A DNA stretch of 64,000 nt, taken from assembly GCA_016188425.1 (NCBI GenBank), contig JACPHX010000016.1:22161-86160 (forward strand), written 5' to 3'. Each line of letters opens with the position of its first letter. Within the stretch, counting starts at the first letter, position 1. The position numbers and the translations under genes are program-made. Below are positions 15,556 to 45,600 of the stretch, in pieces. This DNA is from Candidatus Uhrbacteria bacterium. Its GTDB lineage: Bacteria > Patescibacteriota > Patescibacteriia > UBA9934 > GWF2-40-263. The notes beneath the pieces are model-generated. The model ran no database searches. It saw only the letters and a program-made list of their open reading frames with translations, and was not told where the DNA came from.

Positions 15556-18500
15556 TTAGGTTTTGAGGGAGGAGGCGTGAGGTGGGAGGGTGTCCGGCGG
15601 AGCCGGATCCGGCTCCGCCGGAGAGAGTGACGGGGAAGGCTTGTGTTGTGCTGTTCCGGAGGGGAGAGGGCTCATGTCTACACGCATGCTCAACAGTTCC
15701 GGCTGTTTGATAGAACGATAATCGATAGGACGCACCTCGGTGGTTTGATACCCTTCCTTTTCGAAGGTGGCGTAATACTCGTTGGGACCAAGAAGGAAGT
15801 GGTAGCGTCCGTTGCGGTCGGTAAGACGGGAGTCGATAAGCTTGTTGTAGAGCGGCTCAAACACACGGATAACAGCATCTCGCAACGGTTTTTTCGTGGA
15901 CTTGTCATATACGATCCCCCAGCTCTTCGGTTTGCGCGGGCGAACCAGAACGAACACAAGAACGAGCAAGACGACCTGCAAAATGAAGACACCGATTGTG
16001 AACGCAGAAGGATGAAGAATAAGGACGACAAGCGCCAACACGACGCTCGCCCACGAGAGCGCCGACTCAAGGCGGCGAAGGCGACGTTTCCAACGAATAC
16101 GCAACGCTTCTTTTTCTCCCTTTTCCAAAATGGGATCTAGCGGGATATTGGCGCTAATAACGGCGTTTTTATCTGTCACGCGGATCACCTCGCCGTGATA
16201 GACATCCAAATATTCGCCATCCGTACGAACTTTCTTGAGCCATTCGCTTGGGAAGGAAAACTCCGGCTTGGTCACTTCAATTTGATACTCGCCAGGATCC
16301 GCCAGAAATTCATACATCCCATCTTTCCCAGTGACCCGCGTACGCACCACCTTCGCGTCGGGCAAACGCAGGAGACGGACGACCGCCAATTCAACCGGCA
16401 GCTTTATCCCCGAATGGTACACGACCCCGTATCCTTTTCGTTTCCGCTTAAAGAAAAGACGCAGGGGTTGGGTGAACAAGAGCTGAAGGAACGGCCACAG
16501 TTGGAATTGCAACAACAGAAAACCGATACTGATAGCAGAAAGCGGAACGAACATGAAAGAGAAGCCATCAGCAATCCCGCTCAACAAAGCCCACAGCGAA
16601 AGCTCCGGCCCGGGAATCATAATCTGGGGGTTGATGATGCGGTCTCCATCATCCTCAACCGGCGACCACCCGCTTCCAAGGAGATCCTTAACTCCCTCCA
16701 CGGAATACCGTCCGGCAGGAACATACCAGTAAAAACTGCCATCTACTGGAGTTTCTAAAGGATTCTGTTGGAAAAATGCCGCAATGTTCATGGGGCGATC
16801 TAGCCCGAACTCACGCACATACAGCCGCGCAGAGGCCCCCGAGAGCGGCTGGATAATGCCATCTTGATTCCGCCACACCAACCGGCCGCGCGGCTGCGCC
16901 TCCAGCACATAAGAAAACGACTGCTGCGTGCGATCCTGATAGGTCACCAAGAGAAGCAGGGCGTAATTGCTGACGACGGCAGGGACACGCAAGGTTCCGA
17001 CCCATCCACGATCATCCGTGACCAGCGAGGAAGAACTCGTAGAAAAGTAGGCGTCTATCTTTTCGATCGCTTTGGTTCCCTCATCTGGAATGAGACGCAC
17101 TTGAACGTCTGTATCCACCACCGCGCGGAAACGAATTTCCTGAAGCGGCAGTTCGATTGTCTCGCTTTGTACAAGGAAATGATTCTCTTCCCCAGAAAGC
17201 TCCCCCGGGCGAAGCGGAAACGCCGTGCAATCAACCGGACAGGTCAGAATACTCTCCCCTTTTCCGCAAAATCCGTTTCCACACGCGATGGTGCACCCAG
17301 GGCCGACGCAAATGGGACAGGCCGACCCTACGCAAGGGAGCGGGCAATCCCTCACGCAACTTGCCGGGTCTTCACCGATGCCGCAGACGAGATCACCGCA
17401 GACGGGCGCGCATCCTGGCCCCGTACACGCAGAACAGCCAGGACCGACGCAGGCCACACAATTTGGCCCTGTGCACGGTGCTGGACAATCGATAATGCAG
17501 TTGGCGAGATCCTCCCCGATGCCGCAGACGAAATCTCCACAGACGGGCGTACAGCCAGGGCCCGTACAGGACGCCGGGCAATCGATAATGCAGTTGGCCA
17601 AATCTTCATTCAGGCCGCAGATAAAGTCTCCGCAAAAACCGTTTGTCTGCAATAAGGTTTTGCACGCAATATCTCCCGTCTGGTCAGAGAGAGCCCCGCT
17701 TTGTGACAAGTAGCGCGCCGTATAGGTCGTATCTTGCTGCAACCCGGTCACGGGGAAGGAATGCGAAATGACATACGCGTTGTTCACGAGATGCACGTTC
17801 TTATTGTTGGGATCTGCGCCATACAGCACATCCCCGTCCGCAGGGATATTCGTCTCCCATGCCCAGGTAAGCGAATTATACGAAACGTCCTCGCACCGAG
17901 GGTTGGAAATAAGCACCGGGACGCCAGAGGGACAAACGGGGGTGGCATTGGTAAACGCCCCTGTATAAAATTGGTTCACGCTATCGTACCCGAACACCCC
18001 GTAATAATACGTCGTCCCCGAAACCGCGCTTGAATGGACAAACGTCGTGCTGGCACCATCGTACAGCACGGTTCCGTCATTCTCATCCGCGGGGTAGGTA
18101 TCCGTCCTATACACCACGCGCGCGCCCACCAAAGGCGGAGGAAGCGTCCAGGTTAAACTGTTCTGGCAAAACCCCGGCGTCACGGTAACGGTTATGGGAG
18201 TAATCGGGGGCAAGCCGAAGGGGATGCCGGAATCCAGCGCGATGGGCGCGAACGACCCATTGCTATCAGAGGCGAACGCCGCGTAAAAATATTCCTGACC
18301 GGATACGATCCCTGGGTGCATGAGCGAGCTTCCGGGGCCATCATACAAAAACGTACCATCGGCAATACTGACTGGATAACGATCCAATCGATAAACGATG
18401 ACGGTGTCGACATAAGGAAATCCGGAGGGCGAATACCACGCCAAGTTGTTTAAATACAGCCCAGGCGTGACATCGAGCACTAAACTGACAACCGCGGAAC

Positions 18501-19752: not shown

Positions 19753-22700
19753 CTAAGGGGTAACGGGGACAGAGGCGGGATCAATGACCGCCTCTGGTGG
19801 AACGACTGGTTCTTCGGCAACGGGAGGGTCTTCAACAAGAGGCGGTTCTTCCGTTACGGTAGGTTCCTCAACCGCGGGGGGTTCCTCGACGACAGGGGGA
19901 TCGATCGGGTCGGCGGGGGGGTCGGATGGAGGAACAATCGGATCTGTCACAGGATCGGTCGGCGGCATTACCCCTTCGATGGGAGGAGGTTCAACGGCTT
20001 CTTCGACAACATCTTCATGGTCCTTGCGGACGGCCGTGACATGCCAATCGACGACGATGCCGGAATCCATGCCATCAAGCTGGCGCACGGTGAAACCGTT
20101 GTTATCCTTCTGTGAAACATAGACGTACGCGGGGCCGTTGGCAGTCGTTACGACGGAGATAGGTGAGCTTGTCGAGGTAATGTCGTTAAAGGAAGCGTCG
20201 ACATCTTCGAAGGATACAGTCGCTTCTCCTTGTGAGAGGGTCGCGCTTCCCGAAAGGAACACCGAGTGGTCGGTCGTAAGCATGGCATGAGCGGAAACGT
20301 TTTCGTTCTGATAGGAACGAATCACGACATTGTAGGAAGCGACCGTGGCGAAAAGACCCGCCTCGTCCACGGACCAGGTGTTCCCCATGCCGACCAGCTT
20401 GCCGACATCCAACAGATGATTGCCATGGAGGTACACGGAGCCGTACATATCGAGCGAAGAGAGCTGGGCGTTTGAAGAAATGCCACTGGCGACATTGTCT
20501 ATCGGAGCTACGGCCGCTCCCCCTGTGTGCGAAAGGTTGATGAAGGTAATGATCAAATTATCAGGCGACGAGGCCGTGTATGGTTCCATCGCGTAGCCAA
20601 TAACGGGCCCATCCTCGGTTGCCTTCATAGCCACCCCCGGGACAGACGAGGTCGTCAGCGAATCGCCGATCTCAATCGCGCCGTTCTCATCGGTCACCTT
20701 TGTGGGCACGCGGCCAGCAAGGGCGATGGGGAAATCGCCCGCCCGATTGTCACCCGCCAAGAACCCGGGTTTTGTTGAAACGACACCTGCAACGAGGCCG
20801 TCGTAAGTCTTTCCGGTAGATCGCGAGACATGTTCCGTGTCGCTCACCGAGAAAATTACGACATCGCCCGCCTCAAGCTGATCTTTTGAAGGGAACATCT
20901 CTGCAAAATCGTAGGAGCCAGTCCCCCACCCAGAGGCATTGGTGCGCATAAGGTCGCCGCCAGGGCCGGCAGAACCATCGTAATAGATGTATTTATTCGT
21001 CTGCTTCGTTCCGCGGTCGGATGGGTACAAGTTGCCGCCGATCCACAAATCGCCGGCGAGGCTCATCGCGCCGTCTTGGGTAAGGTAAGCGATTTCTTGA
21101 TCAAGACTATCTTTGTAGGAAAGACGGTATTCATTTTTGTCGGTCACTTCCAAGGCAATGCTTATGGCACGATCGACGGCCACGGAGGAGCTACTATCCC
21201 AGGCACTGCCGCGGAAGGCGAGCGCGTGTGATCCTTGGGCTTGATCGACGGCGGTTGCAGCGATGACGCGGTTGATCGCCAGAGCTTGCTCCACCGTGGC
21301 GACAGAGCCATCGTTAGCGATAACGGCGCCGCTGTGCCACGAAGGCTGCACGTACACGCGAATCGTTCCGACCCCAGGCCCAGTCCATGAATCGAGCGCC
21401 ATACCGACCACCATTCCGGGAAGCGTGGATTTCATGCCCGCGCCGGCGGTTGAGGAAGAGGTGATGGGGTCGCCTGGACGAATCGCTCCGTTTTCGTCGC
21501 TGACTTTCAGAGGAACGCGGCCGGCGGTCGCAATGGCTTTCGGATACGTGGCTGCGTCGATAACGCCGCGGCCGTAGCTTTGCGCCGGCGAGGTGGAGAC
21601 GATACCGACGATGCGTGATTCGTAAGGGGTCGAGGATTTATCGAGAACCGTCAGGTCGCTGACTATTTTGCCTCCCGTGAGGATACCGGTGAGCGGCTCC
21701 ACTTCATCGGCTTCGTAGGTGATCGTCGAGTCGGTGGCAACGACCAAGTCTCCCGCGGTTTCATCACCGGTTGTTTCATACCATTCCGCGATGTCATCCG
21801 GGGCGGCGGAACAGACGACGAGTTCACGATCCGTGGCCGTGGTATCCGAATCCGCCCCGCTGTGGCAGACGCCGTTGGTGGTGGCGGCCCCGTTAAAATC
21901 AGTCTTGATGACTCCGTTCACGTCCAAGATCGTGGCGCCGATGGCGATGGTGCCGTCGGTACCGTCGTTGTCGATGGTTTCGCCTTGCTGAAGGGTGATG
22001 TCGGTGGTCATGTTGGCGCCGGCGCCGTTGGAAAAGACGAGGCCGTTGGTAATGGTTCCCGATGTACTATTCACGACAATGCCGTTTGTGATACCCATAT
22101 CCCCCGTCGAATCGATCCGTAGCCCAATGTCGACCGTAATATCAGACAAGTCATTCACATCTGCGTTATCAATATACAGCAGTTGTGAAACATTCGTATC
22201 ACTTACCCCCGCATCGCTGATGTTTTGATTGCGGATTCTAAAGACTTCTTCCGTTACGTTAACCCCACCGCCAACCGGCGCGGTCCAAAGAGTTTCAAAG
22301 GCAGATATAGTACCACCCGTCACCGAGCCAGAAAGTGTGCTTCTGACATCGATTGTGTTTGAAGTCCACGTAGAAGATTCGGAAGTTGAGTAATGTGCCG
22401 TGAGATCAAGAACTTTTCCGATAGAAAAAGAGTCGCCACTTGTGACGTTATCAAAGTTGAAAATGGATCCTGATGATATGGCGGAGGTGACAACGTCGAT
22501 GACGCTACCTGTTGTGGCATTTGACGTAAATGTGAAGGCACCATCTGCAACACCGTTGCTGATGGTTTCCCCATTTTGCAGACGAATGTCTGTGCCAATG
22601 GATAGGCTTGAAAAATTAAGACCAATTGTCTGCGCACCGCTTATATTGATACCGGTCGTGACCCCCGTCCCGATTTCAATACCATCTGAAATCGTGCCTA

Positions 22701-25700
22701 CTGTTCCGCTCACATACAGACCGTTTGTAATACCCATCCCCCCCGTCGAGTCGATCGTTATACCATTGTCAACAATAATATCTGATAAATCATCGACATC
22801 TGCGTTATCAATGTAAAGTAATTGTGAAACATTGTTATCACTCACTCCCGCATCGCTGATATTTTGATTGCGGATTCTGAAAACTTCCTCCGTGACGTTT
22901 ACCCCACCTCCAACCGGCGCGGTCCAAAGGGTTTCAAAGGCGGAAATGGTGCCACCCGTAACAGAACCAGAAAGCGCACTCCTTACATCTATCGTGTTTG
23001 ATGTCCAAGAGGATGATTCTGAAGTACTGTGTTCTGCCGTTATATCAAGAACTTTTCCTATAGACAATGCATCCGCGTTCGTTACGTTGTCATAGAGAAA
23101 GACAGAGCCGACATCAATATTGGTAGATAGGATTTCCAAGATATTTTGATCTCCGTTGGTAGAGGTAGAAGAGAATCGGAATGTCCCATTTATATCATTT
23201 GAAAGCGTTTCCCCATTCTGAAAACTGATATCGGTTCCAATGCCTGTATTTGAGAGATGAATCCCTGTGGTGGCCGCACCAGCGATTTCAATGGCGTCTG
23301 TAAGGCTGCCAGAAGAAGTGGAAATACGGATGGCGTCCGAAACAGCTGCTCCGTTTGTATCGATATGGAGTTGACCGGTTGGAGCGACGATACCAATCCC
23401 CACATTCCCTCCATCCAGCACAGTAAATACTTGCGACGTATTGTCGTAGAGGTTGAAAATATCGAAGGTATTGGTGCCATTGCTGACCGTGAGCGCTCCG
23501 TCTGGGGCAACAAATGAACCTGATTGGTTTCCAATACCAAGGCGAGATTCGTCGTCCAGGCGCATGCCGGGAGAGAAAGTGCCGTCGTCCATGACCCTGA
23601 AGTCGAGGGCTGCGTCTTCAGATCCATTAGTGGGATCAGTATTGTTTCCTTCAATGCTAGCAAAAGTTGTTTGCGTATTCGTATCGTCTTTCGTATCAAA
23701 ATTGAGAACAATATCTTCTGTGCCGGCAGCTGCGCCTCCAAAATTGTCGGAGTTATATAGGGTGAACAACGCGTTTCCATTGGATGCTTCTTCTATCTGC
23801 ATCGCGCCATTTGTTATGTTTGTGATCGTTCCGCTATTTTGGAGCCGAATGTCGGTAAGCGTCCCGATTCCAGTGGTATCAATCACCACACCATCGATCG
23901 CTGAAGCAGAATCGGCAATAACCTCAAGGCGGCCAGCAGGAGCGATCGTGCCGATCCCCACATTCCCTCCATCAAGCACGGTGAATACCTGCGAGGTGTT
24001 GTCATAAAGGTTGAAAATATCGAAGGTATTGGTGCCATTGCTGACCGTGAGCGCTCCGTCTGGGGCAACAAATGAACCTGATTGGTTTCCAATACCAAGG
24101 CGAGATTCGTCGTCCAGGCGCATGCCGGGAGAGAAAGTGCCATCATCCATGATACTGAAATCGAGGGCTGCGTCTTCGGAGGTATCGGTTGGGTCAATAG
24201 AGTTCGCCTCCATGCGCGCGATCGTTGTCTGTGTTCCAACGGTATCTCTTACGTCAAAATTGATACCAACATCTTCGGTACCTGCCGCAGCTCCACCGAA
24301 TGTATCCGCGTTATAGAAAGTAAAAAATGCATTTCCGTTTATATCTTCAATAAACTGCATGGTTCCATTCCCCAAGGACGGAGTGGAGCTAATTTGTAAA
24401 ATATTGTTTGTGGTGTCGTAAGAGATCGTTCCTTCATCTGTCGTACTAGTTCCTATATGTAATGAACCTGGCTGAACGAATAGATCAGCCCACCGATGAG
24501 TGTCGTCTCCCAGAGTCAGAGAGTTGGAGGTTGGTGGAAGAATTGAGGTATCAACGAGTCCGTTCACACTCACCAAATCCGCCGTTGAAGATCCTAAATC
24601 AATATTATTGTTAAAGAATCCGTTTCCAGAACCATCAATCGTGAAGTAATCCGTCGCTCCCCCGTTATTTTCAACCACGACGAGGTTTGATGTCTGGGTG
24701 GCGTTCGCTTGGATAAGAAGCTGAATTTCATCCGCATTTCCATCGGTTGCCAATTGGGCGGACAAGTTCGTCGCAGACCCAACCGTGACATTATCGGTAG
24801 CGGTCGTAAGGCGCACGAGTGTGCCGTCGTCGGTCCAACCGCCTCCACCGCCGCCACCTGCTGACAAATCGACCCAGGTAGTGCCGCTTCCGGCACTTGT
24901 ATTGACCCAAGTGGTGCCGGCTTGATCTAAATAAAGAGAACCCTCATTGGCGGTCACAATGGTGTTTGGATCTCCGCTTCCAGTAAAAACACCAACCGAC
25001 ACTCCCGCGGTAGTATCTGAGAAACGTAAAAATTCATCTTGATCGGCGGGATTTGAGGATTCAATATCCAACAGCGCGTCGGGCGTGGTGGATCCGATCC
25101 CCACGAAACCAGTATTGGCAAAAGTAGCAAAGGGTGTTCCTGCGTCGGCGATTTTGAAGTCTCCAGTGGTCGTCAAATCAAAGGTGAGCCCAGTTGTGTC
25201 ATCGACCTCCATTGTAAGATTCGTGTTGGTGATGGATTGCGCGTACACCTCGTCGAAATCCGGTGTTGTTCCCGCACCAGCCAGGTCTGTCCAAGTGGTT
25301 CCCGCATCTCCCGCGCTGGAGTTGACCCACGCTTTTCCCGCCTGGTCCAAGTAGAGAGATCCGGACTCGGCCGAATGGGTCGGTGTTCCTGTGCCGGTAT
25401 AGAAATCCACTTCATCGGCATTCGTTTCGTCCGTGAGGCGCATCAAGCTCGTATTCTCTGCATCGGAAATATCAATGTAGGTATCAGGAGTGATCGTGCC
25501 GATACCCAGCCGGCTCGTATCGGTGATGACGACGGGATTCGTGCCGAAATAGCGAAGGACGTCCGCACGCACGCTGGCGGCGGTCGACAAATCATCTACC
25601 GCCAACCCGTAAAAGGTTCCCACGGATCCTGCCCCTGTATCGCTCGTTTCGTTCACACTGAAGGCATAGTAGGTATCGATATTCCCTGCCGCCGTAATAA

Positions 25701-28700
25701 TAGGCGTCGTGCGAACCCCATACCCTTCCGTGATCGAGGCCGCCGATTGGGCGGCAATTTGTACATTGATCCCCAAAGCATCGGCGATATCCGCCGCCGC
25801 GCTGGTCGCTTCGCTGCTGATGACAGATTCAAGACCCGTAAGCGTCAGAACGCCATCCGTATCGCCGGCAGCGGTGATGGCTTGGAAATACCCGGCCATG
25901 GAACTGTTCAAGGCGGCGGAGGCATCATACCGGTTCGAAACGCGCAGTACTTGTGTTGCGTCGGCTGAAAGGTCTTCGGCTAAATGAAAGACGCGCGTGG
26001 AAGAGGCGACTTCTCCCAGATCCCCGCCGATGAACCGGCTCCCCATAATGCCGTGGCCTGTCACAAGAAAATCTCCGGAAAGCGTAAGATTCTCGGTGGG
26101 GGTCGTATCTCCAAACCCGGCGAATCCGCTGCTCTTATCCAGATAGAAATCGTCGACGAAGAAGGCGATGTCTGCATTCCCCGTTGCGTCTGAAGCAAAA
26201 TTGAAAATATCCTGTCCTGCATCGGTATAGGTAAGCAGCCCTTCCGCCGTCGCAGAGGTGCCGATATGGAGCGTCGCGGGGCCCAAATACAAATCCTTCC
26301 AGCGCTGGCCGGCCGAGCCGAGGTCGTAAAAATCATCGGTTTCCGGGATGAAATCGGACGCTATATCCGCGTTAAAATCGACGGTATCGGTGGCGTCCGC
26401 ACCGAAGGTGATATTCCCACTGTCATCAAAAAGCGCAAAGGTCGAACTTGCATCTTGGATCGCTATGTCACCTGTGGTTGTCAGATCAAAGAAAAGACCC
26501 GTGGCAGAATCCACGTCCATCGTCTTGTCTCCATCATTGTCATAAACAGAATCCAACGTATCCGCGCCGCCGGTTGCGGCAAGATCGGTCCAGGTGGTTC
26601 CGCTTCCGGCACTCGTGTTGACCCAGGTCGTTCCGGCCTGATCCAAGTAAAGGGATCCTTCATTGGCCGTCACAGATCCATTAGGATCCCCAGAACCTGT
26701 ATATAAGCTGGCGGAGGTGGCACCAAATGTCAGACGGATGTATTCCGCGTCTGCAACCCCTTGTTCCACATCCAGTCGCGCGTCGGGGGTGGCGGTATTG
26801 ATCCCGACGAAGCCCGCTTGTCCACTCACGACGGATCCGTTCACGGTAAAGGCATCAATGCTTCCCCCAATCGCTGTGATGAAAAAATTATCTGATGCTG
26901 AAGCCAATTCCCATGTCAAATCCCCGGAATCGACCTCGATTAATTCTGTTCCGCCCCCATAGTTGTCGTAGGCGTCATCGAGCGTTGGGCTGCTCCCGCC
27001 GCTAAGGTCTATCCATGTATCAGCCCCATCGGTATTGACCCAAGCCGTCCCTCCCGCCCCATCTTGGTCGAGATAGATCGAACCAATGCCGCCAAACGTG
27101 TTAATCACCAGATTCGGATCCCCAGTTCCTGTATAGATACCGGGAATGAGGCCGGAAGTTTGGTCGTTCAGTGAAATAAACTTGTTGTCCTCTGGTCGAG
27201 AAATGGTGGCAAGCGAGTCGGTATCTGGTGTTGATGTCCCAATCCCGAGCCTTCCGCCTTCATCAACGACAAAGCCGGCGCCCCCGAGGTAGCGTATCGG
27301 GAACGTCTCCGTGGCGCCCGCCCCCGTGAGGTCTTCGATGAGCAGGCCGTTAAACGAGTTCACGACGCCGCTGCTGGCCAAATCCGGCCCGTTCACGACA
27401 AACGCGCCGTACGAATCGATGTCGCCAGAATCGAGGATGATCGGCCTCCCGTGGAAGCTGTATCCGGTGGGAAGACTCGCCGTTCCGTCATTGACGACCT
27501 GCCCGTTCACGCCAACCAGCACCGTTGCCAGATCATATCCAAAGGTATCGATGTTCCCGATCGCATTCCCTTCCGTACCGATAAGAGTTCCCAGTTTCAC
27601 TGCGGCTCCAGACGTATTCTGCGCGGTGGCCTGAAAAACGCCGGCGGTATTCCCGGAAAAACCCACCGAAGTCGCGGTAAAACGGGAGGAAGCGCGAAGA
27701 ACCTCATCGCCATCGGCCGTCATGTCTTCCGCCAGATGCAAGACGCGATCCGTGAAAGAGACCTCCCCCAAATCGCCTCCGTTGAACCGATTTCCCATGA
27801 TGCCGTGGCCTGTCACGAGATAATTTCCAGATACGGTGAGGTTCTCGGTGGGGGTAGTATCCCCCAAGCCGACGAACCCGGCGCTTTTATCAAGATATAT
27901 GTCGTCTGTAAAGAATGCGATGTCTGCATTCCCTGTGGCGTCAGAAGCAAAATTAAAAATATCCTGACCTGCGTCGGTATAAGTGAGCAGCCCTTCCGCG
28001 GTCGCAGACGTGCCTATATGGAGCGAGGCAGGCCCTAAGTATAAATCGCGCCATCGCTGGCCGGCAGAACCAAGATCAAAGGCAATGTCGGTTTCCGGAA
28101 TAAAATCCGAGGAGATATCCGCGTTGAAATCGACCGTATCGGTTGCGTCCGCACCGAAGGTGATATTCCCATTATTGGCAAATCTGGCAAATGTGCTCCC
28201 TGCATCCTGAATGACAAAATCTCCGGTCGCAGCCGTGATATTGAAGGTAAGGCCTGCTCCTCCTGCGTCATCGATCTCCATGATGAGGTTCCCATCCGCA
28301 ATCGACTCGGCGTAGACCTCATCGAAGTTATCGACTGTGCTTGCACCAGCCAGGTTAGACCACACGCTCCCCGTCGCGCCGACGGACGTGTTTACCCAAG
28401 TGACGCCAGTCTGATCCAGATAGATGGACCCGCGCGCCGCCGTCACTCCGCCATTGGGATCCCCGCTTCCCGTAAGAATTCCCGTGGAAGCGCCATTTCC
28501 TGTATCGGTAAGGTTGATATAAACGTCGTCTTCGCCCGCATTGGCAGATTCGATGTCGATGGCGCCATCAGGCGTGGTCGTATTGATGCCCAAAGAACTG
28601 CGCAGGTAGGTTTGCCCGCCGGAGGTCAGAAAAAATTGAACCGTTTCGTCTCCAGAGACATCCGATGTTACTTCAAACAGCCGATCCGCATCCGCGGTCG

Positions 28701-29388
28701 ATTCTGAATCGATATCAACCAACGCATCCGTATCCACGCGGTTCAACGTCGTGTTGTCGATATTGAGCGCATTGGTGAGCTGCAGGTTCCCCGTGGAATC
28801 TGTGACGGTCACGATGCTGTTGCCGCCAACCTGCGAGGGGAAAAATCCATCCAGACTCTCCGCATTAAGGGCGTACGATGACGCCCCCATGCGGATGCGC
28901 GGAGTCATCTCGGGATCGGGGGAAATCGTCAGTCCAAGGTAGACGGTGGAGGTGTCGGCAAACAGGGAACTCGGGATGAAATTTTGACCCGTGTCGCCCA
29001 AAAGGAGAGAGAACACGCCGTCTGTGACGGTCACGGAAACCGTGCCGTCTGGCGTATCGCCGGCACAGTCTATCGTCGCGGTATTGGCATCGGTATTGCC
29101 GGCGCTCCAAAGACAGACGCCTGCGGCGGCGGCATCATAAAACGCAAAAAACATTGAGTAGACGCCGTCATCGACGGTAACGCGCTGGTCATCGGTAAGC
29201 TTCGCTTGAAAAGGGATCAGCCGAGGTGGTGTGACCGCCAAAGCAGTGGCGGCTTGCGTCATGTTTATGATGGCCACCGATACGCAAACAACAGCGCGAA
29301 TCAACCGATTCGTGCGTTTGGAAAACGGATGAATGTGTCCCACCAAACGATGGGAGAAATGGCCTCCGTACATAATCGGGGCAAGCAC
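19753..29388 (-). CDS. Giant repetitive surface protein, 3211 aa (signal peptide; Thr/Asp/Gly/Ser-rich beta-repeat modules; duplicated C-terminal ~150-aa domains; Pro/Glu-rich C-tail)
   Basis: Longest ORF in the window. Signal-like region RLIRAVVCVSVAIINMTQAATALA. Paralogous over the N-terminal ~140 aa and several internal modules to ORF 39697..46914. Contains multiple internal tandem duplications. Antisense ORFs in the ORF track are GC artefacts. Confidence 0.8.
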   Translation of the reverse strand: MLAPIMYGGHFSHRLVGHIHPFSKRTNRLIRAVVCVSVAIINMTQAATALAVTPPRLIPFQAKLTDDQRVTVDDGVYSMFFAFYDAAAAGVCLWSAGNTDANTATIDCAGDTPDGTVSVTVTDGVFSLLLGDTGQNFIPSSLFADTSTVYLGLTISPDPEMTPRIRMGASSYALNAESLDGFFPSQVGGNSIVTVTDSTGNLQLTNALNIDNTTLNRVDTDALVDIDSESTADADRLFEVTSDVSGDETVQFFLTSGGQTYLRSSLGINTTTPDGAIDIESANAGEDDVYINLTDTGNGASTGILTGSGDPNGGVTAARGSIYLDQTGVTWVNTSVGATGSVWSNLAGASTVDNFDEVYAESIADGNLIMEIDDAGGAGLTFNITAATGDFVIQDAGSTFARFANNGNITFGADATDTVDFNADISSDFIPETDIAFDLGSAGQRWRDLYLGPASLHIGTSATAEGLLTYTDAGQDIFNFASDATGNADIAFFTDDIYLDKSAGFVGLGDTTPTENLTVSGNYLVTGHGIMGNRFNGGDLGEVSFTDRVLHLAEDMTADGDEVLRASSRFTATSVGFSGNTAGVFQATAQNTSGAAVKLGTLIGTEGNAIGNIDTFGYDLATVLVGVNGQVVNDGTASLPTGYSFHGRPIILDSGDIDSYGAFVVNGPDLASSGVVNSFNGLLIEDLTGAGATETFPIRYLGGAGFVVDEGGRLGIGTSTPDTDSLATISRPEDNKFISLNDQTSGLIPGIYTGTGDPNLVINTFGGIGSIYLDQDGAGGTAWVNTDGADTWIDLSGGSSPTLDDAYDNYGGGTELIEVDSGDLTWELASASDNFFITAIGGSIDAFTVNGSVVSGQAGFVGINTATPDARLDVEQGVADAEYIRLTFGATSASLYTGSGDPNGSVTANEGSLYLDQAGTTWVNTSAGSGTTWTDLAATGGADTLDSVYDNDGDKTMDVDSATGLFFDLTTTGDIAIQDASSTFALFDDSGNITFGADATDTVDFNADIASDFIPETDDFYDLGSAGQRWKDLYLGPATLHIGTSATAEGLLTYTDAGQDIFNFASDATGNADIAFFVDDFYLDKSSGFAGFGDTTPTENLTLSGDFLVTGHGIMGSRFIGGDLGEVASSTRVFHLAEDLSADATQVLRVSNRYDASAALNSSMAGYFQAITAAGDTDGVLTLTGLESVISSEATSAAADIADALGINVQIAAQSAASITEGYGVRTTPIITAAGNIDTYYAFSVNETSDTGAGSVGTFYGLAVDDLSTAASVRADVLRYFGTNPVVITDTSRLGIGTITPDTYIDISDAENTSLMRLTDETNADEVDFYTGTGTPTHSAESGSLYLDQAGKAWVNSSAGDAGTTWTDLAGAGTTPDFDEVYAQSITNTNLTMEVDDTTGLTFDLTTTGDFKIADAGTPFATFANTGFVGIGSTTPDALLDIESSNPADQDEFLRFSDTTAGVSVGVFTGSGDPNTIVTANEGSLYLDQAGTTWVNTSAGSGTTWVDLSAGGGGGGGWTDDGTLVRLTTATDNVTVGSATNLSAQLATDGNADEIQLLIQANATQTSNLVVVENNGGATDYFTIDGSGNGFFNNNIDLGSSTADLVSVNGLVDTSILPPTSNSLTLGDDTHRWADLFVQPGSLHIGTSTTDEGTISYDTTNNILQISSTPSLGNGTMQFIEDINGNAFFTFYNADTFGGAAAGTEDVGINFDVRDTVGTQTTIARMEANSIDPTDTSEDAALDFSIMDDGTFSPGMRLDDESRLGIGNQSGSFVAPDGALTVSNGTNTFDIFNLYDNTSQVFTVLDGGNVGIGTIAPAGRLEVIADSASAIDGVVIDTTGIGTLTDIRLQNSGTITNITNGAMQIEEASNGNALFTLYNSDNFGGAAAGTEDIVLNFDTKDDTNTQTTFASIEGNNTDPTNGSEDAALDFRVMDDGTFSPGMRLDDESRLGIGNQSGSFVAPDGALTVSNGTNTFDIFNLYDNTSQVFTVLDGGNVGIGIVAPTGQLHIDTNGAAVSDAIRISTSSGSLTDAIEIAGAATTGIHLSNTGIGTDISFQNGETLSNDINGTFRFSSTSTNGDQNILEILSTNIDVGSVFLYDNVTNADALSIGKVLDITAEHSTSESSSWTSNTIDVRSALSGSVTGGTISAFETLWTAPVGGGVNVTEEVFRIRNQNISDAGVSDNNVSQLLYIDNADVDDLSDIIVDNGITIDSTGGMGITNGLYVSGTVGTISDGIEIGTGVTTGINISGAQTIGLNFSSLSIGTDIRLQNGETISNGVADGAFTFTSNATTGSVIDVVTSAISSGSIFNFDNVTSGDSFSIGKVLDLTAHYSTSESSTWTSNTIDVRSTLSGSVTGGTISAFETLWTAPVGGGVNVTEEVFRIRNQNISDAGVSDTNVSQLLYIDNADVNDLSDITVDIGLRIDSTGDMGITNGIVVNSTSGTITNGLVFSNGAGANMTTDITLQQGETIDNDGTDGTIAIGATILDVNGVIKTDFNGAATTNGVCHSGADSDTTATDRELVVCSAAPDDIAEWYETTGDETAGDLVVATDSTITYEADEVEPLTGILTGGKIVSDLTVLDKSSTPYESRIVGIVSTSPAQSYGRGVIDAATYPKAIATAGRVPLKVSDENGAIRPGDPITSSSTAGAGMKSTLPGMVVGMALDSWTGPGVGTIRVYVQPSWHSGAVIANDGSVATVEQALAINRVIAATAVDQAQGSHALAFRGSAWDSSSSVAVDRAISIALEVTDKNEYRLSYKDSLDQEIAYLTQDGAMSLAGDLWIGGNLYPSDRGTKQTNKYIYYDGSAGPGGDLMRTNASGWGTGSYDFAEMFPSKDQLEAGDVVIFSVSDTEHVSRSTGKTYDGLVAGVVSTKPGFLAGDNRAGDFPIALAGRVPTKVTDENGAIEIGDSLTTSSVPGVAMKATEDGPVIGYAMEPYTASSPDNLIITFINLSHTGGAAVAPIDNVASGISSNAQLSSLDMYGSVYLHGNHLLDVGKLVGMGNTWSVDEAGLFATVASYNVVIRSYQNENVSAHAMLTTDHSVFLSGSATLSQGEATVSFEDVDASFNDITSTSSPISVVTTANGPAYVYVSQKDNNGFTVRQLDGMDSGIVVDWHVTAVRKDHEDVVEEAVEPPPIEGVMPPTDPVTDPIVPPSDPPADPIDPPVVEEPPAVEEPTVTEEPPLVEDPPVAEEPVVPPEAVIDPASVPVTP
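21328..22011. repeat. 684-bp tract near-identical (by eye roughly 93-96%, no indels) to 41248-41931 in the paralogous giant gene
   Basis: Encodes MTTDITLQQGETIDNDGTDGT...IRVYVQPSWHSG in both proteins. Identity drops abruptly at both ends (ggtggtcat | divergent). Confidence 0.85.
22100..23250. repeat. In-gene tandem duplication A (~636-bp period, two units) within the 3211-aa ORF
   Basis: Protein units SIGKVLDITAEHSTSESSSWTSNTIDVRSALSGSVTGGTISAFETLWTAPVGGGVNVTEEVFRIRNQNISDAGVSD... repeated at ~95% identity. The nucleotide motif atctgcgttatcaat...attgtgaaacatt recurs at 22165 and 22800. Confidence 0.8.
23400..24520. repeat. In-gene tandem duplication B (558-bp period, two units) within the 3211-aa ORF
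   Basis: Antisense ORFs 23453.. and 24011.. begin with identical 47-aa strings. The sense strand encodes ...DAALDF..MDDGTFSPGMRLDDESRLGIGNQSGSFVAPDGALTVSNGTNTFDIFNLYDNTSQVFTVLDGGNVGIG twice. Confidence 0.85.
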
Positions 29389-39696: not shown

Positions 39697-42600
39697 TTAT
39701 TCGCTGACTGGGCCAAAGACGATCTCGTCTGGAACAGGGTCAGAGGCAGGGACATCAACCTCCGTCGGGGGAGGATCGGCTGGCTGATCGCCTGTTCCTA
39801 CATCCGTAGACGGATCAGTACCCGCGTCTCCAGATGTGTCTGTGCCGTCGACTGGATCTGGTGCTGTGTTAGTCGTTGTGTCTGTGGTTGTCCCTGCCCC
39901 CTCATCTGCAATCTCATCTATGACCTCCGGCTCATGGTCTTTACGATACGCATACACAACCCAATCGAAGCTGACGCCGTTTTCTGTGCCACCGATTTGT
40001 TGAACGGTGAATCCATTGTTATCGCGCTGCGACACATACAAGGAAACGGGTCCATTTGGAGTGGCGATGACGCGGATAGGAGCAAAAGTCGAGATGATGT
40101 CATTGAAAGCGGGGTTTACCTCTTCAAAGACGATGGTGGCGCTGCCATTTTCCAGCAATCCTTCGCCGACCAAGGTCGCGAACGGTTCCATAGAAACAGT
40201 CGCAACGGTTTCAACATCTTCACCTTGGTAGGATTCGATGACGTTCTTCACGAGACCTTTGGTGACAAAATTTCCTTCTTCATCGATGGCCCACACGCCA
40301 GCAAGGCCGTTGATGCGGCCGACATCGAGGATTTCATTGCCGTGCGCATAGAAACTGCCGTAGAGGTCGAGCTGTGACAAACCGCTTACTCCCGAGGTGG
40401 TGCCAGTGATGGTCTCCGTCCCAGGAATCGATTCTGATTCCCCAGTAAACAACGATGTTTGGACAAAGACGACGATCAAATCATCGGCGGCACCGCTTGT
40501 ATATGGTTCCAACGCGTATCCGACGATCATGCCCGATTCCGTCGCTTTCATGGCGACACCTGGGGTGGAAGAGGCGGTGAGGGGATCGCCGATCGCGATA
40601 TCGCCATTTTCGTTTGATACTCTCGTTGGCACGCGCCCCATAAGGGCAACGGGGTAGTGACCGGGGAGATTTTCACCTGCGAGAAACCCTGGCTTGGTGG
40701 AGATAATGCCGGCGAGAATTTCATCAGCGGAACCGGTGCTCTTCATGATAGTTTCGTTTCCCGCCACGGAGAAAGCGACGACGTCCCCAGGGACAAGGGA
40801 GGCGGCAGATGGGAACATTTCCGCGAAATCATAGGAACCAGTGCTCCAACCGGAGGCATTGGTGCGCATCATGTCGCCGCCCGGACCTTCTGAATTATCG
40901 TAGAAAATATATTTATCCATTTGCTTCGTGCCGCTGGCGGATGGATAGAGCTTGCCGCCGATCACGATATCGCCATTGAGTTCAGCTGTGCCGAGATTGT
41001 TGATGAGGGCGACTTCTTGATCTGAAGCGTCCTTGACGGATAAGCGATAGTCCGTCGTGGAGGTGGTCGCCAAGGAGAGGCTCATGGAGACACCATCCGC
41101 ACTCGTCGTGTCTGTATTCCATGCGCTTCCACGGAAGACGAACGCCCGCGAATCAACCGCCGTGGCGATTTCCGTCGCCGTTCCTTCCGCCGACAGCACG
41201 GCAGCCGTGGCCAGCGAAATCATCGAGCCGTCGTTGCCGATCGCCATGCCGCTGTGCCACGAAGGCTGCACATACACGCGAATCGTGCCGACTCCAGGCC
41301 CATTCCATGCATCAAGGGCGATGCCGACCACCATGCCGGGAAGAGTGGATTTCATGCCCGCGCCAGCGGTCGAGGAAGAGGTGATGGGGTCGCCTGGGCG
41401 AATTACTCCGTTCTCATCGCTCACTTTCAGAGGAACGCGGCCGGCGGTCGCGATGGCTTTCGGATACGTGGCTGCATCTATCACGCCGCGGCCATAGCTC
41501 TGTGCCGGCGAGGTGGAGACGATACCGACGATGCGTGATTCGTAAGGGGTCGAGGATTTATCGAGAACGGTCAGATCACTGACGATCTTGCCTCCCGTGA
41601 GGACGCCGGTGAGCGGTTCCACTTCATCCGCCTCGTAGGTGATGGTGGCATCCGTGGCAACGACCAAGTCTCCCGCGGTTTCATCACCGGTTGTTTCATA
41701 CCATTCCGCGATGTCATCCGGAGCCCCGGAACAGACGACGAGTTCGCGATCCGTGGCCGTGGTATCCGAATCCGCCCCGCTGTGACAGACGCCGTTGGTG
41801 GTGGCGGCCCCGTTGAAATCAGTCTTGATGACTCCGTTCACGTCCAAGATCGTGGCGCCGATGGCGATAGTGCCGTCGGTACCGTCGTTGTCGATGGTTT
41901 CGCCTTGCTGGAGGGTGATGTCGGTGGTCATCCGATTGCCGGCACCGTCTCCTAAAACAAGACCATTGGTAATGGTGCCGCTCGTTCCGTTTATTTTGAT
42001 TCCATTGGTCATTCCAGAGGTCCCGGTACTATCAATAAACAGGCCGTTTGTCACCACAACATTTGCTCCATCACCCGTAGGATCTGCGTTGTTGATATAC
42101 ACAAGGGTATCGACCAATAGATCCGAAGAACTGGAAGTGGATTGATTTTCCACACGCAGGACGCGCTCTGTTGCGCCTGCAGTTGACGTGCTTTGAGTCC
42201 AAGGAATATCGATGCCGATATCTGTTCCTCCGCTCGCGCCATGTACATTCGTGATATTGAATTTGTAGGCCGAGAATCCTGAAGCACCGTTATTATGTCT
42301 TGACGTGAGATCAAGAACAGAACCTGTTGAAAAATTATTGGCTCCGCTCGTGAAATTCACGATATCGCCTGCTCCAAACGAGCTTCGGGAAAGCGAGAAC
42401 ATGTTTGCGGCGGCGGTATTGCTCGTGAATCGGAACGTCCCATCGTCCTCATTGTCGATGGTCTGACCGCTCTGCAGTTTGAAATCTGTGATCATATCAA
42501 CCTCCCCAGAACTGAAATCGATCCCCGTAAGCACCCCATCAGTCACCTTGTATCCAACTGTTGCTGTGTTTGTACCGGCCAAATCGATATTAATACCATT

Positions 42601-45600
42601 CGTAATCCCATCGGCGATCCCTCCTGAATTCAATATGTTGATGGCATTGGTTGCTTTCACGCTTTGCGTGGCGGTCGTGTCGTCATTATCCAATACGAGC
42701 AAAGTGTTAATGGCGAGATCGTCATTAGTCGCCGTATCTTCTACCACATGGATCTCAAACACCTTTTCCTGACTTCCATTAAATTCTGAGTCTTGCTGCC
42801 AGGCAAAATCGTATCCCCAGATATTATTGGAACCTCCTCCGCTTGTTGCATTTACAGTCTTAAATTTATTAGCAGTAAACCCGAAACTTGTCCCATCGTG
42901 CCGTGAAGTGACATTGAAGGCGCTCCCCACTGAATCGAAGTATCCTGTAGAGGAGGCATAATTGATCAGGCTTCCGGACATGCTTGCCAAATCATGATCA
43001 AAGGTCAATACATTCGCGCTATCGGTCGTGTTTGAGGTGAGCTTCAGGGTTTGCGTGGAAAGATTTATGACTCCCAGCGTTGCGTTATCAATACGCGAAA
43101 CACTTGCCGAGCTTGCATCGTAATCTCCCCGCAACCGAATTTCGGCCGTTCCAGTAAAATCTGTCGCAGTTACTGACGTATTATCAGAAAAATTAATTCC
43201 ATAGCCGACTCCGTCCAATATGGTAATGCCATTGGCAAATCCGTTGCCCGTCATCGCCTCCCCGATCTTGATACCGTGCGAAAAGACATCTGTATTATCT
43301 CCGGTATTGGAAATCTCCAGGGCTTGCGATATGGTCATGTCTTGCGTAAGAGTCGTATCTGAATTATTCAATCGTAATAGCGACTGGATGTTTGTATCAG
43401 AGTTTCCGCCGGAATCGTCTTCGATATTCCGGATATCCACGACAATCTCGTTTCCCCCATTGAATGAGGCGCTGTTTTGCCAGATAAAGTCATACCCTTT
43501 CGAACCGGCGGCACCGCTCCCTGACTGATTATTGATGATATTAAATTCTCCAGCGGTGAAACCGGGTCCGTTATGCGATGATGTCACATTAAAAACACGC
43601 CCCGTCCCATTGAGGGACGATGTTGTCGATACATCAAAAATATCGCCGGATGTTGCCCCGGATGTAATCTGAATTGCCTGCCCGCCGGATGTCTGCGTCC
43701 CGGTAGTGATCGCAAGAGCGGTGCCGGTGGTCAGTGCGCTTGTGTTGATATTGATGCCGGTCCCTGAAGACATGGAGGTTGCATCCAATACAATACCCGA
43801 CCCCGTAGTGGCTCCCGAAGCAATGTGGATTGCCTCTCCTCCGGCTATTTGCGTTCCAGTTGTCATTTCGATACCTGATCCGGTAGTCAATGATGATGCG
43901 GTGATCCCAAGCGCGAATGCGGTTGTTGCAAAACTATCGATATCAAACGTGCCATCTGGTGTTGTGTCGTTTATACCGACTCTTCCTGCAGATTTATCAA
44001 GATACAAATCGTCCGTAAAAAAGGCGATGTCGCCGTCTGACGTTGCGTCCGTACCGAAGTTAAAAATACTGGAGACGCTATTGTACGACAACGTCCCTTC
44101 ATTTGTTGCCGTATCGCCGACGTGAAGCGTGGCTCCGTCCAAATACAAATCCCCCCATCGCAACGCACTCGTACCAAGATCGAGCGTGCCGTCGGCAGAA
44201 GGGACGATCGCCGAACTCACACGGCTCACAAACGAAACCGTATCGGTCGTCGCGTCACCAAGCGTCACATTGCCGTTGAATGTGCCGACGCCGGCATTCG
44301 TCATGGTGAACAAATCGGTCCCGGCGCTATTTTCAAATACAACGAGGTTTGTGGTTTGTGCCGCATTCGCCTGCACGAGGAATTGGATTTCATCCGCGTT
44401 TCCGTCCACGGCCAAATTGGCAGAGAGGTTTGTCGCCGTACCGACCGTGACGTTATCCGTGGCGGTCGTGAGGCGCACAAGCGTGCCATCGTCGGTCCAG
44501 CCGCCGCCACCACCCGCGCCGATTTGCACGAACGAGGCGCCGTTGTACATGTACAAACCATCCCCCGTGGCATCCCAAACAATATCCCCCTCGGCTGTCC
44601 CCGTGACGGAGGATGGCGCGCCCGCATTCGTGGGAATGTTCAACCCGACGTTCGCCGCATGCGCGGCCGTGTCGACTCGTTTCGTCGTAACGACATTGCC
44701 GGAGGAATCAACCGTAAACAGGTCACCGGACCCGACCGTAAACAAGGCAGCGGGGGTTGCATCGCCGATACCGACAAATCCGCTGTCAGCGAACGTCACA
44801 AATGGGGTTCCCGCATCCGCGATGGTAAAGTCGCCCGTCGTCGTCAGGTTGTAGGTGAGACCCGTTGCATCGTCGATTTCCATGGTCAAATTCGTATTGG
44901 TGATGGATTGCGCGTACACCTCGTCGAAATCGGGAGTCGAGACGCTGCCCGCCAAATCCGTCCACGTCGTTCCCGCGTCTCCCGCGCTGGAATTCACCCA
45001 CAATTTTCCCGTCTGATCCAGATAAATAGAGCCGGACTCTGCCGAGTGGGAGGGGGTTCCCGTTCCGGTTTGGATATCGACTTCGTCTGCATTCGTACTG
45101 TCTGTCAATCGGATGAAATTCGTATTCTCAGCGTCAACGATGTCGATATGCGTATCCGGAGCCGTGGTTCCCATGCCAATCCACCCATTTACATCAACGA
45201 CGAAATCGTCCGGGCCGAAATAGCGGATCGGAAAGGCGGCCACAGAGGCAGATGCCGATAAGTCATCAATGGCCAGCCCATAAAAATTCCCAACGACTCC
45301 GGTACTGGAGGCAAATGTGTCATTGATGGTCACTGCATAATAATCCGTAATATCTCCCGCCCCCGTGAGCAATGGTCGGGTGATGACTCCGTAGGCAGAA
45401 GTTATATCTCCAGAAGATTCGTTGACTACTTGCGCGCTCACGGCCATGGCACTCGTAATAGGATCCGGTCCTCCTCCGACCGCTTGGTTGCTCACGACAG
45501 ATTGCACGCCAGTCAAAGTATCTACGGCATTTATCAGCCCTGTCTTTGCAATAGATTGAAAGTATCCTGCCGTGGACGCATATCCTGCCGCCCCTGGGCT

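What the first reader, a model, noticed from the sequence alone, without database searches (positions are those of the whole stretch)
21328..22011. 684-bp gene-conversion tract between the two giant genes (21328-22011 vs 41248-41931)
The paralogs are only moderately similar at the nucleotide level overall. This 684-bp block is the exception: it is collinear, indel-free and roughly 93-96% identical by eye, with sharp boundaries (identity ends right after ...ggtggtcat). That is the signature of recent non-reciprocal recombination between paralogs, a mechanism commonly used to diversify or homogenise surface antigens.
Basis: seen in the sequence. Interest (0 to 1): 0.6.

Follow-up and report, generated by a model that had tools for sequence, protein, structure and literature searches.

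The report
Gene-conversion island between two giant fibre genes
Two very large, otherwise strongly diverged surface-fibre genes of an uncultured Candidatus Uhrbacteria bacterium share a 684-bp stretch kept nearly identical by recombination between the copies; this is a known process, and here the stretch encodes a phage-tailspike-like self-cleaving folding module.

Summary
Window 21328-22011 and 41248-41931 are collinear, indel-free and 92.8% identical (635/684). Both lie in frame in two minus-strand paralogues (3211 and 2405 aa) that are otherwise about 47% identical in protein and 52-57% in DNA.

The block is not explained by protein conservation. dS is 0.29 inside and saturated outside, even where amino-acid identity is 80-83%. 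At conserved residues the same codon is used in 82% of cases inside and 39% outside (p = 3e-31). An unsupervised scan recovers the same boundaries.

I tested and rejected an overlapping ORF, RNA structure, an Rfam element, codon bias and a DGR. Ectopic gene conversion, probably recurrent, is the best explanation. The 5' 278 nt differ by 2.9% and the rest by 10.1%. Gene 1 also has a 134-bp perfect intragenic repeat. RecA is in the window.

"Recent" holds only relative to the old duplication, and "non-reciprocal" cannot be tested.

This is a known mechanism in a new setting, of modest interest.

The parts
21328..22011 (-). Tract copy A, inside giant gene 1 (protein residues 2460-2687)
   Evidence: 684 columns, no indels, 92.8% identical to copy B; dS 0.29, dN 0.014
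41248..41931 (-). Tract copy B, inside giant gene 2 (protein residues 1662-1889)
   Evidence: Same as copy A; constant offset of 19920 nt; aa identity 96.9%
19753..29388 (-). Giant gene 1 (ORF of 3211 aa; signal-peptide-like N-terminus; no Pfam hit)
39697..46914 (-). Giant gene 2 (ORF of 2405 aa), paralogue of gene 1, about 47% aa identity end to end
21734..22011 (-). Younger 5' sub-tract (8/278 differences, 2.9%; GC3 0.82 in the first 60 codons); encodes the stalk end and the D-x-A-E motif
   Evidence: Change-point analysis, permutation p = 0.0085; GC3
21328..21733 (-). Older 3' sub-tract (41/406 differences, 10.1%)
21328..21801 (-). First beta-tulip domain (tract residues 71-228), like the phi29 gp12 auto-chaperone; its last strand ends at the 3' tract boundary
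21784..21795 (-). D-I-A-E motif (tract D73-E76); the gene 2 equivalent is at 41704-41715
   Evidence: D 87/89, A 88/89, E 89/89 across the family; aligns to residues 1-4 (DFAE) of the released gp12 fragment 3gqh
20575..20916 (-). Second, diverged beta-tulip domain of gene 1 (motif SYDFAEMFPS); the gene 2 equivalent is at 40441-40845. It lies outside the tract and is not homogenised
   Evidence: tblastn 39-40% aa identity to tract residues 95-228; motifs; no significant synonymous excess after masking the tract
27783..27824 (-). 42-bp perfect micro-patch shared with gene 2 (45705-45746)
   Evidence: Exact-match list; 13/13 identical codons, permutation p = 0.002; the Logan contigs break here
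25226..25260 (-). 35-bp perfect micro-patch shared with gene 2 (44897-44931)
   Evidence: p = 0.024
23450..23583 (-). 134-bp perfect intragenic repeat in gene 1 (identical to 24008-24141, offset 558 bp = one 186-aa stalk unit), with flanks decaying to 60-70% identity
4515..5561 (+). recA, the homologous-recombination machinery, encoded in the same window
   Evidence: PF00154 E = 3.7e-136

Best explanation
The 684-bp block is an island of concerted evolution, maintained by ectopic (inter-paralogue) homologous recombination, i.e. gene conversion. It links two old, otherwise saturated paralogous genes for secreted, tail-fibre-like giant proteins in a Candidatus Uhrbacteria (CPR) genome.

Shown: the two copies share codons, not just amino acids, over a sharply bounded segment. 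Divergence within the segment is heterogeneous. Other perfect patches exist between and within the genes. recA is present.

Inferred: RecA-mediated conversion has recurred in this segment since the duplication, which kept enough identity there for further events. Meanwhile the flanks (variable stalk repeats upstream, the rest of the C-terminal region downstream) drifted below the identity needed for recombination, and this sharpened the boundaries.

The segment encodes the last ~70 residues of the stalk plus a beta-tulip domain homologous to the phi29 gp12 C-terminal intramolecular chaperone, which carries the family-invariant D-x-A-E motif. By analogy, this module probably nucleates trimer folding of the fibre and may then cleave itself off immediately before the Asp. 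Its strong protein constraint (dN 0.014) makes conversion harmless or beneficial there, whereas conversion elsewhere would erase functional differences between the two fibres.
Against: No close relative exists (tract homologues 52% aa or less; next PolA 59%). The classical proof, paralogues clustering within a genome for the tract but by orthology for the flanks, therefore could not be done. The flanks are too diverged (about 50-60% nt) for RecA to start an exchange there, so the model needs a history of repeated events rather than one recent event. GC3 jumps to 0.71-0.82 inside the tract in both genes, against 0.42-0.60 upstream. That could mean the sequence came from a third donor rather than from either gene. 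Only one assembly spans the tract, because the independent Logan contigs stop earlier. Autocleavage and chaperone function are inferred from homology only, and the window proteins themselves do not reach any Pfam threshold.
Confidence: 0.78

Rival explanations
1. Both genes independently received the segment from a third source: another paralogue elsewhere in the genome, a related strain, or a mobile element. The similarity would then reflect a shared donor rather than direct exchange between these two genes.
For: Codon usage switches abruptly at the tract boundary in both genes. GC3 is 0.82 in the first 60 codons and 0.42-0.60 upstream, so neither flank looks like the native context. Only 64 kb of the genome is visible.
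Against: There is no third copy in the window. No relative above about 52% aa identity exists among 5.8 billion protein clusters, species-representative genomes, JGI metagenomes or IMG/VR. The downstream region also has raised GC3 (0.60-0.62), so the contrast is partly a property of the C-terminal region. This is still recombinational replacement, a variant of the main model.
Confidence: 0.12
2. Purifying selection on an essential protein domain, possibly with strong codon bias, keeps the block similar without any recombination.
For: The domain is highly constrained (dN 0.014) and contains a family-invariant motif. GC3 is high, which suggests biased codon choice.
Against: Synonymous sites are also conserved: dS is 0.29 inside and saturated in equally constrained control windows. 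Same-codon use is 176/215 against 99 expected even from the tract's own codon usage, p = 4e-27. The equally conserved second beta-tulip domain downstream shows no significant synonymous excess.
Confidence: 0.03
3. A constraint at the nucleotide level, from an embedded RNA element, an internal promoter or start site, or an overlapping gene, preserves the DNA sequence itself.
For: The tract begins exactly at an in-frame ATG.
Against: No alternative-frame ORF spans the tract or is shared by both copies. No Rfam family lies there. The RNA folds no better than shuffles, z = +1.9. 43/49 differences sit at codon position 3, the signature of coding constraint only. No Shine-Dalgarno-like sequence precedes the ATG in either gene (read from the sequence).
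Confidence: 0.03
4. Assembly artefact: the metagenome assembler merged or cross-joined reads of two paralogues, creating artificial similarity.
For: k-mer-based Logan assemblies of the same samples fragment inside both giant genes at a shared 42-bp repeat. The tract contains exact runs of up to 68 bp, which could allow phase switching. No second assembly spans the tract.
Against: A collapse would give 100% identity, not 49 differences of which 43 are synonymous third-position changes. Both copies are in frame and continue into distinct, homologous flanks on both sides. Phase switches between copies would not change their pairwise divergence. The flanking sequence is reproduced at 100% identity in independent assemblies.
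Confidence: 0.03
5. The two copies are the template and variable repeats of a diversity-generating retroelement (common in CPR).
For: CPR genomes often carry DGRs that target C-terminal regions of surface proteins (general knowledge).
Against: The differences are not adenine-specific: C>T 13, T>C 7, A>G 6, C>G 5, G>C 5 and so on. 684 bp is several times longer than a typical TR/VR pair. Both copies lie in long intact ORFs. No reverse-transcriptase domain was found among the window ORFs scanned.
Confidence: 0.01

Closest known systems
Inter-paralogue (ectopic) gene conversion and concerted evolution in bacterial surface-protein gene families, including recombination-driven homogenisation in the giant4/giant5 genes of Apilactobacillus kunkeei (PMC12863079)
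   Same: A sharply bounded segment with low dS sits inside otherwise diverged genes for very large extracellular proteins. It was detected by sliding dN/dS and breakpoint statistics, and homologous recombination is the inferred mechanism.
   Different: The A. kunkeei evidence comes from many strains and mostly concerns allelic or inter-strain tracts longer than 1 kb. Here there is one genome, two paralogues 20 kb apart and a 684-bp tract, with no population or orthologue data. Unlike the pilE/pilS or vlsE cassette systems (general knowledge), there are no silent cassettes, and the converted part is the conserved module, not the variable one.
Phage phi29 gp12 (pre-neck appendage / tailspike) C-terminal auto-chaperone domain; Pfam PF11962 Peptidase_G2; PDB 3gqh, 3suc
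   Different: Sequence identity is about 19%, and the window proteins do not hit PF11962 at all. The domain occurs twice in tandem and is followed by a further ~270 residues rather than ending the protein. The host is a cellular CPR genome, not a phage. The residue before the Asp is Asp or Tyr rather than the Ser modelled in gp12 (PMC4690869). Cleavage is untested.
Beta-tulip capsid cement/decoration proteins (Pfam PF09956 Phage_cement_2; HFTV1, Sf11, phi29 gp8.5 base, BB1, Pam3)
   Different: Those are small stand-alone capsid-binding proteins without the D-x-A-E start. They score below gp12 and have no fibre context.
Peptidase_S74 intramolecular chaperone of endosialidase / T5 pb1 tail fibres (PF13884)
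   Same: The logic is the same: a C-terminal trimerisation chaperone of a fibre that is removed by autoproteolysis (PMC4690869). It is also a conserved module at which tail-fibre genes are mosaic.
   Different: The fold is different (helical coiled-coil with tentacles) and so is the catalytic Ser-Lys chemistry. The window proteins have no S74 hit, and only 1 of 89 family members carries one elsewhere in the protein.

Membership tests
Ectopic gene-conversion tract between paralogues | A segment significantly more similar than the rest of the paralogue alignment, with definable breakpoints | tested here: met
   92.8% against 52-57% nt identity; the scan gives 22023-21313 with log-LR 63-72 against a permutation maximum of 13
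Ectopic gene-conversion tract between paralogues | Synonymous divergence inside the tract far below that of the flanks, including equally constrained flanks | tested here: met
   dS 0.29 against saturated; same-codon use 82% against 39%, p = 3e-31; the codon-bias control gives p = 4e-27
Ectopic gene-conversion tract between paralogues | Phylogenetic incongruence: paralogues cluster within a genome for the tract but by orthology for the flanks | not testable with these tools
   No relative above about 52% aa identity for the tract, and the next PolA is 59% identical
Ectopic gene-conversion tract between paralogues | Homologous-recombination machinery present | tested here: met
   recA at 4515-5561, PF00154 E = 3.7e-136
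Ectopic gene-conversion tract between paralogues | Non-reciprocal transfer with an identifiable donor and recipient | not testable with these tools
   There is no outgroup, and both copies share the same atypical GC3
Ectopic gene-conversion tract between paralogues | Not an assembly artefact (read support across the boundaries of both copies) | tested here: inconclusive
   Flanks are reproduced at 100% identity in Logan assemblies, but those contigs stop at 27795 and 45717, before the tract. The pattern of 49 mostly synonymous differences argues against collapse.
Peptidase_G2 / phi29 gp12 autoproteolytic intramolecular chaperone (PF11962) | Match to the Pfam PF11962 model at or above its gathering score (25 bits) | tested here: not met
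   The tract domain and the whole proteins give no PF11962 hit at the E cut-offs used, 1 for the tract domain and 0.01 for the whole proteins. Among homologues, 9/89 hit at E of 0.01 or less, and only some reach 25 bits (P0097 27.8; P0013 24.5).
Peptidase_G2 / phi29 gp12 autoproteolytic intramolecular chaperone (PF11962) | Fold of the gp12 C-terminal fragment (beta-tulip body) | tested here: met
Peptidase_G2 / phi29 gp12 autoproteolytic intramolecular chaperone (PF11962) | Conserved Asp...Glu motif at the very start of the released domain. That these are the catalytic residues is my recollection of the Pfam/MEROPS description; the primary paper was not available. | tested here: met
   D73-x-A75-E76 is invariant in 87-89 of 89 family members and aligns to DFAE, residues 1-4 of chain 3gqh_A
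Peptidase_G2 / phi29 gp12 autoproteolytic intramolecular chaperone (PF11962) | Autocleavage after trimer folding, with release of the C-terminal fragment | not testable with these tools
   Needs protein expression and mass spectrometry
Peptidase_G2 / phi29 gp12 autoproteolytic intramolecular chaperone (PF11962) | The domain forms the extreme C-terminus of a tailspike or fibre | tested here: not met
   The tract domain is followed by about 524 (gene 1) and 516 (gene 2) more residues, including a second beta-tulip copy
Diversity-generating retroelement TR/VR pair | Differences confined to template adenines; short (~100-150 bp) repeats; a nearby reverse transcriptase | tested here: not met
   Mixed substitution spectrum with 43/49 differences at codon position 3; 684 bp long; no RT among the ORFs scanned
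Peptidase_S74 intramolecular chaperone | Match to PF13884 | tested here: not met
   No hit in either giant protein

The most novel reading that the evidence does not exclude
The homogenised module may not be a passive relic. It could be a selected, shared 'adapter' of a modular fibre system in CPR epibionts. In one version, the two giant fibres must keep an identical stalk-end and auto-chaperone junction because they co-assemble into mixed trimers, or are folded, cleaved or anchored by one common partner. In another version, the conserved module serves as a recombination hinge, as in phage tail-fibre mosaicism, that lets the cell swap distal or proximal fibre parts between loci and so change host-attachment specificity. 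The tandem, possibly doubly self-cleaving beta-tulip architecture, found in more than 867 mostly CPR proteins, would then define an uncharacterised class of phage-tailspike-derived cellular surface fibres.
Probability: 0.12. Interest if true: 0.65.

Novelty: new member of a known kind. Interest (0 to 1): 0.35.

Why it matters
Gene conversion between paralogous surface-protein genes is textbook biology, so the mechanism alone is not news. The case has two points of value. First, it is a clean, statistically strong example of partial concerted evolution in a Candidate Phyla Radiation genome. These organisms have tiny genomes and few paralogues, and their recombination dynamics are little documented. 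The genes also show several further identity patches, which suggests ongoing ectopic exchange. Second, the conserved island points to the functionally critical part of otherwise unannotatable giant proteins. That part is a phi29-gp12-like, probably autoproteolytic intramolecular-chaperone module, often in tandem, shared by hundreds of CPR proteins. This gives a testable handle on how CPR cells build their large surface fibres, which are candidates for host attachment. It also flags a practical issue: short-k assemblies break at exactly these repeats.

Tried and rejected
- **Pfam, PHROGs and NCBIfam** on the giant proteins, the tract and the C-terminal regions gave no usable hits. There was only a weak K1-lyase_C match (E 0.03) and coiled-coil-like PHROG matches.
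- **Single-sequence AlphaFold** of the tract was useless, with pLDDT 33. It was redone with an 89-sequence alignment.
- **A 7-sequence profile against the PDB** returned only a chance hit. The 89-sequence profile was needed.
- **Close relatives for an ortholog/paralog tree** were sought in protein clusters, GTDB species genomes and JGI metagenomes. Nothing closer than about 52% aa identity over part of the domain turned up.
- **A viral-contig scan with the family profile** found no confirmed relatives, though only one peptide pattern was usable.
- **Independent assemblies across the tract** could not be obtained. Two look-ups failed, probably because of start-codon mismatches. The Logan contigs that were found end inside the giant genes, before the tract.
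- **Rival explanations** were tested and rejected: DGR, overlapping ORF, Rfam element, RNA structure and codon bias.
- **The 75-80% identity stretch at 20880-21030**, considered as an older tract, was not significant after masking the main tract.
- **Tandem Repeats Finder** found nothing in gene 1 because the repeat period (558 bp) exceeds its limit. The repeat was found by exact matching instead.
- **A self-BLASTP** for internal repeats returned nothing useful.
- **The primary gp12 paper** (Xiang et al. 2009, PMC2692858) is not held. The catalytic roles of Asp and Glu therefore rest on my recollection of the Pfam/MEROPS description.
Full report
**Observation.**

The segments 21328-22011 and 41248-41931 align without a single gap and are 635/684 = 92.8% identical. 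On the same diagonal (offset 19920 nt), identity falls to about 0.5 within 30-60 nt on either side.

Both segments lie in frame within two very long minus-strand ORFs: 19753..29388 (3211 aa) and 39697..46914 (2405 aa). The encoded 228 residues are 96.9% identical.

The two proteins align end to end at about 47% identity. Aligned codons outside the tract are 52-57% identical in DNA, and the other blastn-detectable segments are 68-75% identical. There is no third copy in the window.

**Is it more than protein conservation?**

I built a codon alignment and computed Nei-Gojobori distances.

- Inside the tract, dS = 0.29 and dN = 0.014.
- Outside, dS is saturated everywhere. That includes control windows with 80-83% amino-acid identity (gene 1 codons 1320-1440, nt identity 71-76%).
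- Of the 49 differences, 43 are at third codon positions.

I then restricted the comparison to positions where both proteins have the same degenerate amino acid.

- The same codon is used in 176/215 cases inside the tract and 377/968 outside. Chance expectation from codon usage is about 35%. Fisher's p = 3e-31.
- An unsupervised likelihood scan returns 22023..21313. The log-LR is 72 for that best segment and 63 for the fixed-length scan compared with the null, whose maximum is 13 in 1000 permutations.
- Even with the tract's own codon usage as the null, which is inflated by the identity itself, only 99 identical codons are expected (p = 4e-27).

The codon-level view of the boundary is telling. 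The conserved peptide TSGTITNGLV just upstream is written with different synonymous codons in the two genes, whereas inside the tract the codons themselves coincide.

**Rivals tested.**

| Rival | Result |
|---|---|
| Overlapping ORF | No alternative-frame ORF spans the tract or is shared by both copies |
| Rfam element | No family lies in the tract |
| RNA structure | The tract RNA folds no better than shuffles (z = +1.9) |
| DGR template/variable pair | Substitution spectrum is mixed (30 transitions, 19 transversions), not adenine-specific |
| Assembly collapse | Would give identity, not 49 mostly synonymous differences; both copies continue in frame into distinct homologous flanks |

Independent Logan assemblies of four runs from the same project reproduce the flanking regions at 100% identity over 17.3 and 9.0 kb. 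They stop at 45717 and 27795, at a 42-bp exact repeat shared by the two genes, so they do not reach the tract. The artefact rival is therefore unlikely but not formally excluded.

**Signs of recurrent exchange.**

- Divergence inside the tract is heterogeneous. The 5' 278 nt of the coding strand (22011→21734) differ at 8 sites (2.9%) and the remaining 406 nt at 41 sites (10.1%). Permutation p = 0.0085, and the result is the same using third positions only.
- After masking the tract, two short patches of perfect identity remain significant: 27783-27824 / 45705-45746 (42 bp, p = 0.002) and 25226-25260 / 44897-44931 (35 bp, p = 0.024).
- Within gene 1, two adjacent 186-aa stalk units share a 134-bp perfectly identical core (23450-23583 = 24008-24141). 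The flanks decay to 60-70% identity.
- recA is encoded in the window.

Together these fit ongoing ectopic homologous recombination among similar segments of these genes. The 684-bp block would be the largest island, where repeated events have kept identity high while the flanks diverged beyond the reach of recombination.

"Recent" is thus only relative, since dS of 0.1-0.5 is substantial. Direction and reciprocity cannot be inferred.

One feature remains unexplained. Codon usage switches abruptly at the 5' boundary in both genes: GC3 is 0.82 in the first 60 codons and 0.42-0.60 upstream. This is compatible with GC-biased conversion or with a third, unseen donor copy.

**What the tract encodes.**

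No Pfam, PHROG or NCBIfam model matches the proteins. A direct homologue search gave three distant hits. A profile built from the window copies and translated CPR loci then recovered more than 867 proteins, overwhelmingly from Patescibacteria.

With an 89-sequence alignment, AlphaFold gives pLDDT 90-99 for tract residues 71-228 and disorder for residues 1-70.

- The family profile hits 3gqh by sequence (E 8.5e-4). The alignment begins at chain residue 1, DFAEYFES, opposite the family motif D-x-A-E. That motif is D73/A75/E76 of the tract and is invariant in 87-89 of 89 members.
- Nine of 89 homologues touch PF11962 (Peptidase_G2), five touch PF09956 and five touch PF24146.

The literature states that the gp12 C-terminal domain is an intramolecular chaperone cleaved off after folding. 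[quoted passage not shown]

The tract therefore encodes the last ~70 residues of the fibrous stalk plus a gp12-like beta-tulip auto-chaperone domain, and the 3' tract boundary coincides with the end of that domain.

Each giant protein carries a second, diverged copy of the domain about 295 residues downstream (motif SYDFAEMFPS). This copy is not homogenised. The same tandem arrangement recurs in many CPR homologues.

Membership in Peptidase_G2 proper is not established. The window proteins fail the Pfam model, the domain is not C-terminal-most, and cleavage is untested. The resemblance in fold and motif is nonetheless strong.

**Context.**

PolA in the window is 100% identical to an NCBI protein annotated as Candidatus Uhrbacteria. 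The next-best PolA is 59% identical.

The window is ordinary chromosome. It encodes FtsK, RecA, EF-P, a class II (D/K/N) aminoacyl-tRNA synthetase, SSB, S6, YchF, RmuC, Pol III delta and PolA, plus five tRNA genes. Ribosomal protein S20 is called only on the Logan contig L025, which is 100% identical to this part of the window. Two further large surface proteins lie directly downstream of gene 1, one with FG-GAP repeats (1587 aa) and one with fn3/CarboxypepD_reg domains (1382 aa). Both giant proteins have signal-peptide-like N-termini.

I infer that they are secreted, trimeric, tail-fibre-like surface fibres. A role in host attachment is speculation.

**Comparison and verdict.**

Conversion or homogenisation among genes for very large extracellular proteins is documented, for example in A. 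kunkeei giant4/5 (PMC12863079). Inter-paralogue conversion in bacterial surface genes is general knowledge.

This is therefore a new member of a known kind. The added value is the identification of the conserved module and of further identity patches.

Interest is modest (0.35). The most novel reading not excluded is that the shared module is a selected adapter or recombination hinge of a modular CPR fibre system. I give that about 12% probability.

Noticed in passing
window 23450-23583 and 24008-24141 (gene 1, minus strand): A 134-bp perfectly identical repeat sits inside gene 1, at an offset of 558 bp (one 186-aa stalk unit). Flanks decay to 60-70% identity, and 23396-23611 is 203/216 identical to its partner. 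The two units are only about 58% identical in protein overall. It looks like a very recent intragenic conversion between adjacent repeat units.
   Followed up: partly
window 27783-27824 = 45705-45746; 25226-25260 = 44897-44931: Two short perfect matches (42 and 35 bp) link the giant genes within an otherwise saturated background. Both are significant in the synonymous-codon scan (p = 0.002 and 0.024). The k-mer-based Logan contigs of SRR12113421 and SRR12113422 end exactly at the 42-bp match (45717 and 27795).
   Followed up: partly
window 21832-22011 and 41752-41931 (first 60 codons of the tract) versus 22012-22550 / 41932-42470: Codon usage switches abruptly at the 5' tract boundary in both genes. 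GC3 is 0.82 inside and 0.42-0.60 upstream, for similar amino-acid composition (Thr, Gly, Asn, Ile, Asp). This could reflect GC-biased conversion or an external donor, and is unresolved.
   Followed up: partly
window 20575-20916 and 40441-40845: Each giant protein has a second, diverged gp12-like beta-tulip domain (motif SYDFAEMFPS, closer to phi29's DFAEYFES than the tract copy). The tandem double-domain layout recurs in loci L001, L006-L008, L011, L012 and L021. Which of the two motifs, if either, is the cleavage site is unknown.
   Followed up: partly
family-wide (P0001-P0121; loci L001-L024): More than 867 proteins, mostly from Patescibacteria (Uhrbacteria, Magasanikbacteria, Saccharimonadales, Woesebacteria, Dojkabacteria and others), share this domain with its invariant D-x-A-E motif, yet nearly all have no Pfam annotation. 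A single-pattern scan of IMG/VR found no viral members.
   Followed up: partly
window 10755-15518 and 15556-19704 (minus strand): Two more large secreted-type proteins lie directly downstream of gene 1: one of 1587 aa with about 9 FG-GAP repeats, and one of 1382 aa with fn3, CarboxypepD_reg and SdrD_B-like domains. With gene 1 they form a block of surface-protein genes about 19 kb long.
   Followed up: no
window 29484-30527 and 30463-31674 (minus strand), just upstream of gene 1: Two ORFs of unknown function precede gene 1. One has a weak WxL-interacting peptidoglycan-binding-domain hit (E 1.6e-4). The 403-aa ORF is exactly conserved in four Logan assemblies from the same project. They may be accessory or anchoring partners of the fibre.
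   Followed up: no
window about 36.0-36.6 kb and 61553-62539: A PhdYeFM-family antitoxin gene pair lies next to tRNA-Ala (36764-36839). A tyrosine recombinase (Phage_integrase/XerC-like) lies near tRNA-Arg and tRNA-His (60408-61464), as called on Logan contigs L026 and L025.
   Followed up: no
whole window: The organism is a Candidatus Uhrbacteria with about 55% GC. Its PolA is only 59% identical to the next relative, so it is an isolated lineage. It recurs with 100% identical sequence in runs SRR12113418, -20, -21 and -22.
   Followed up: partly
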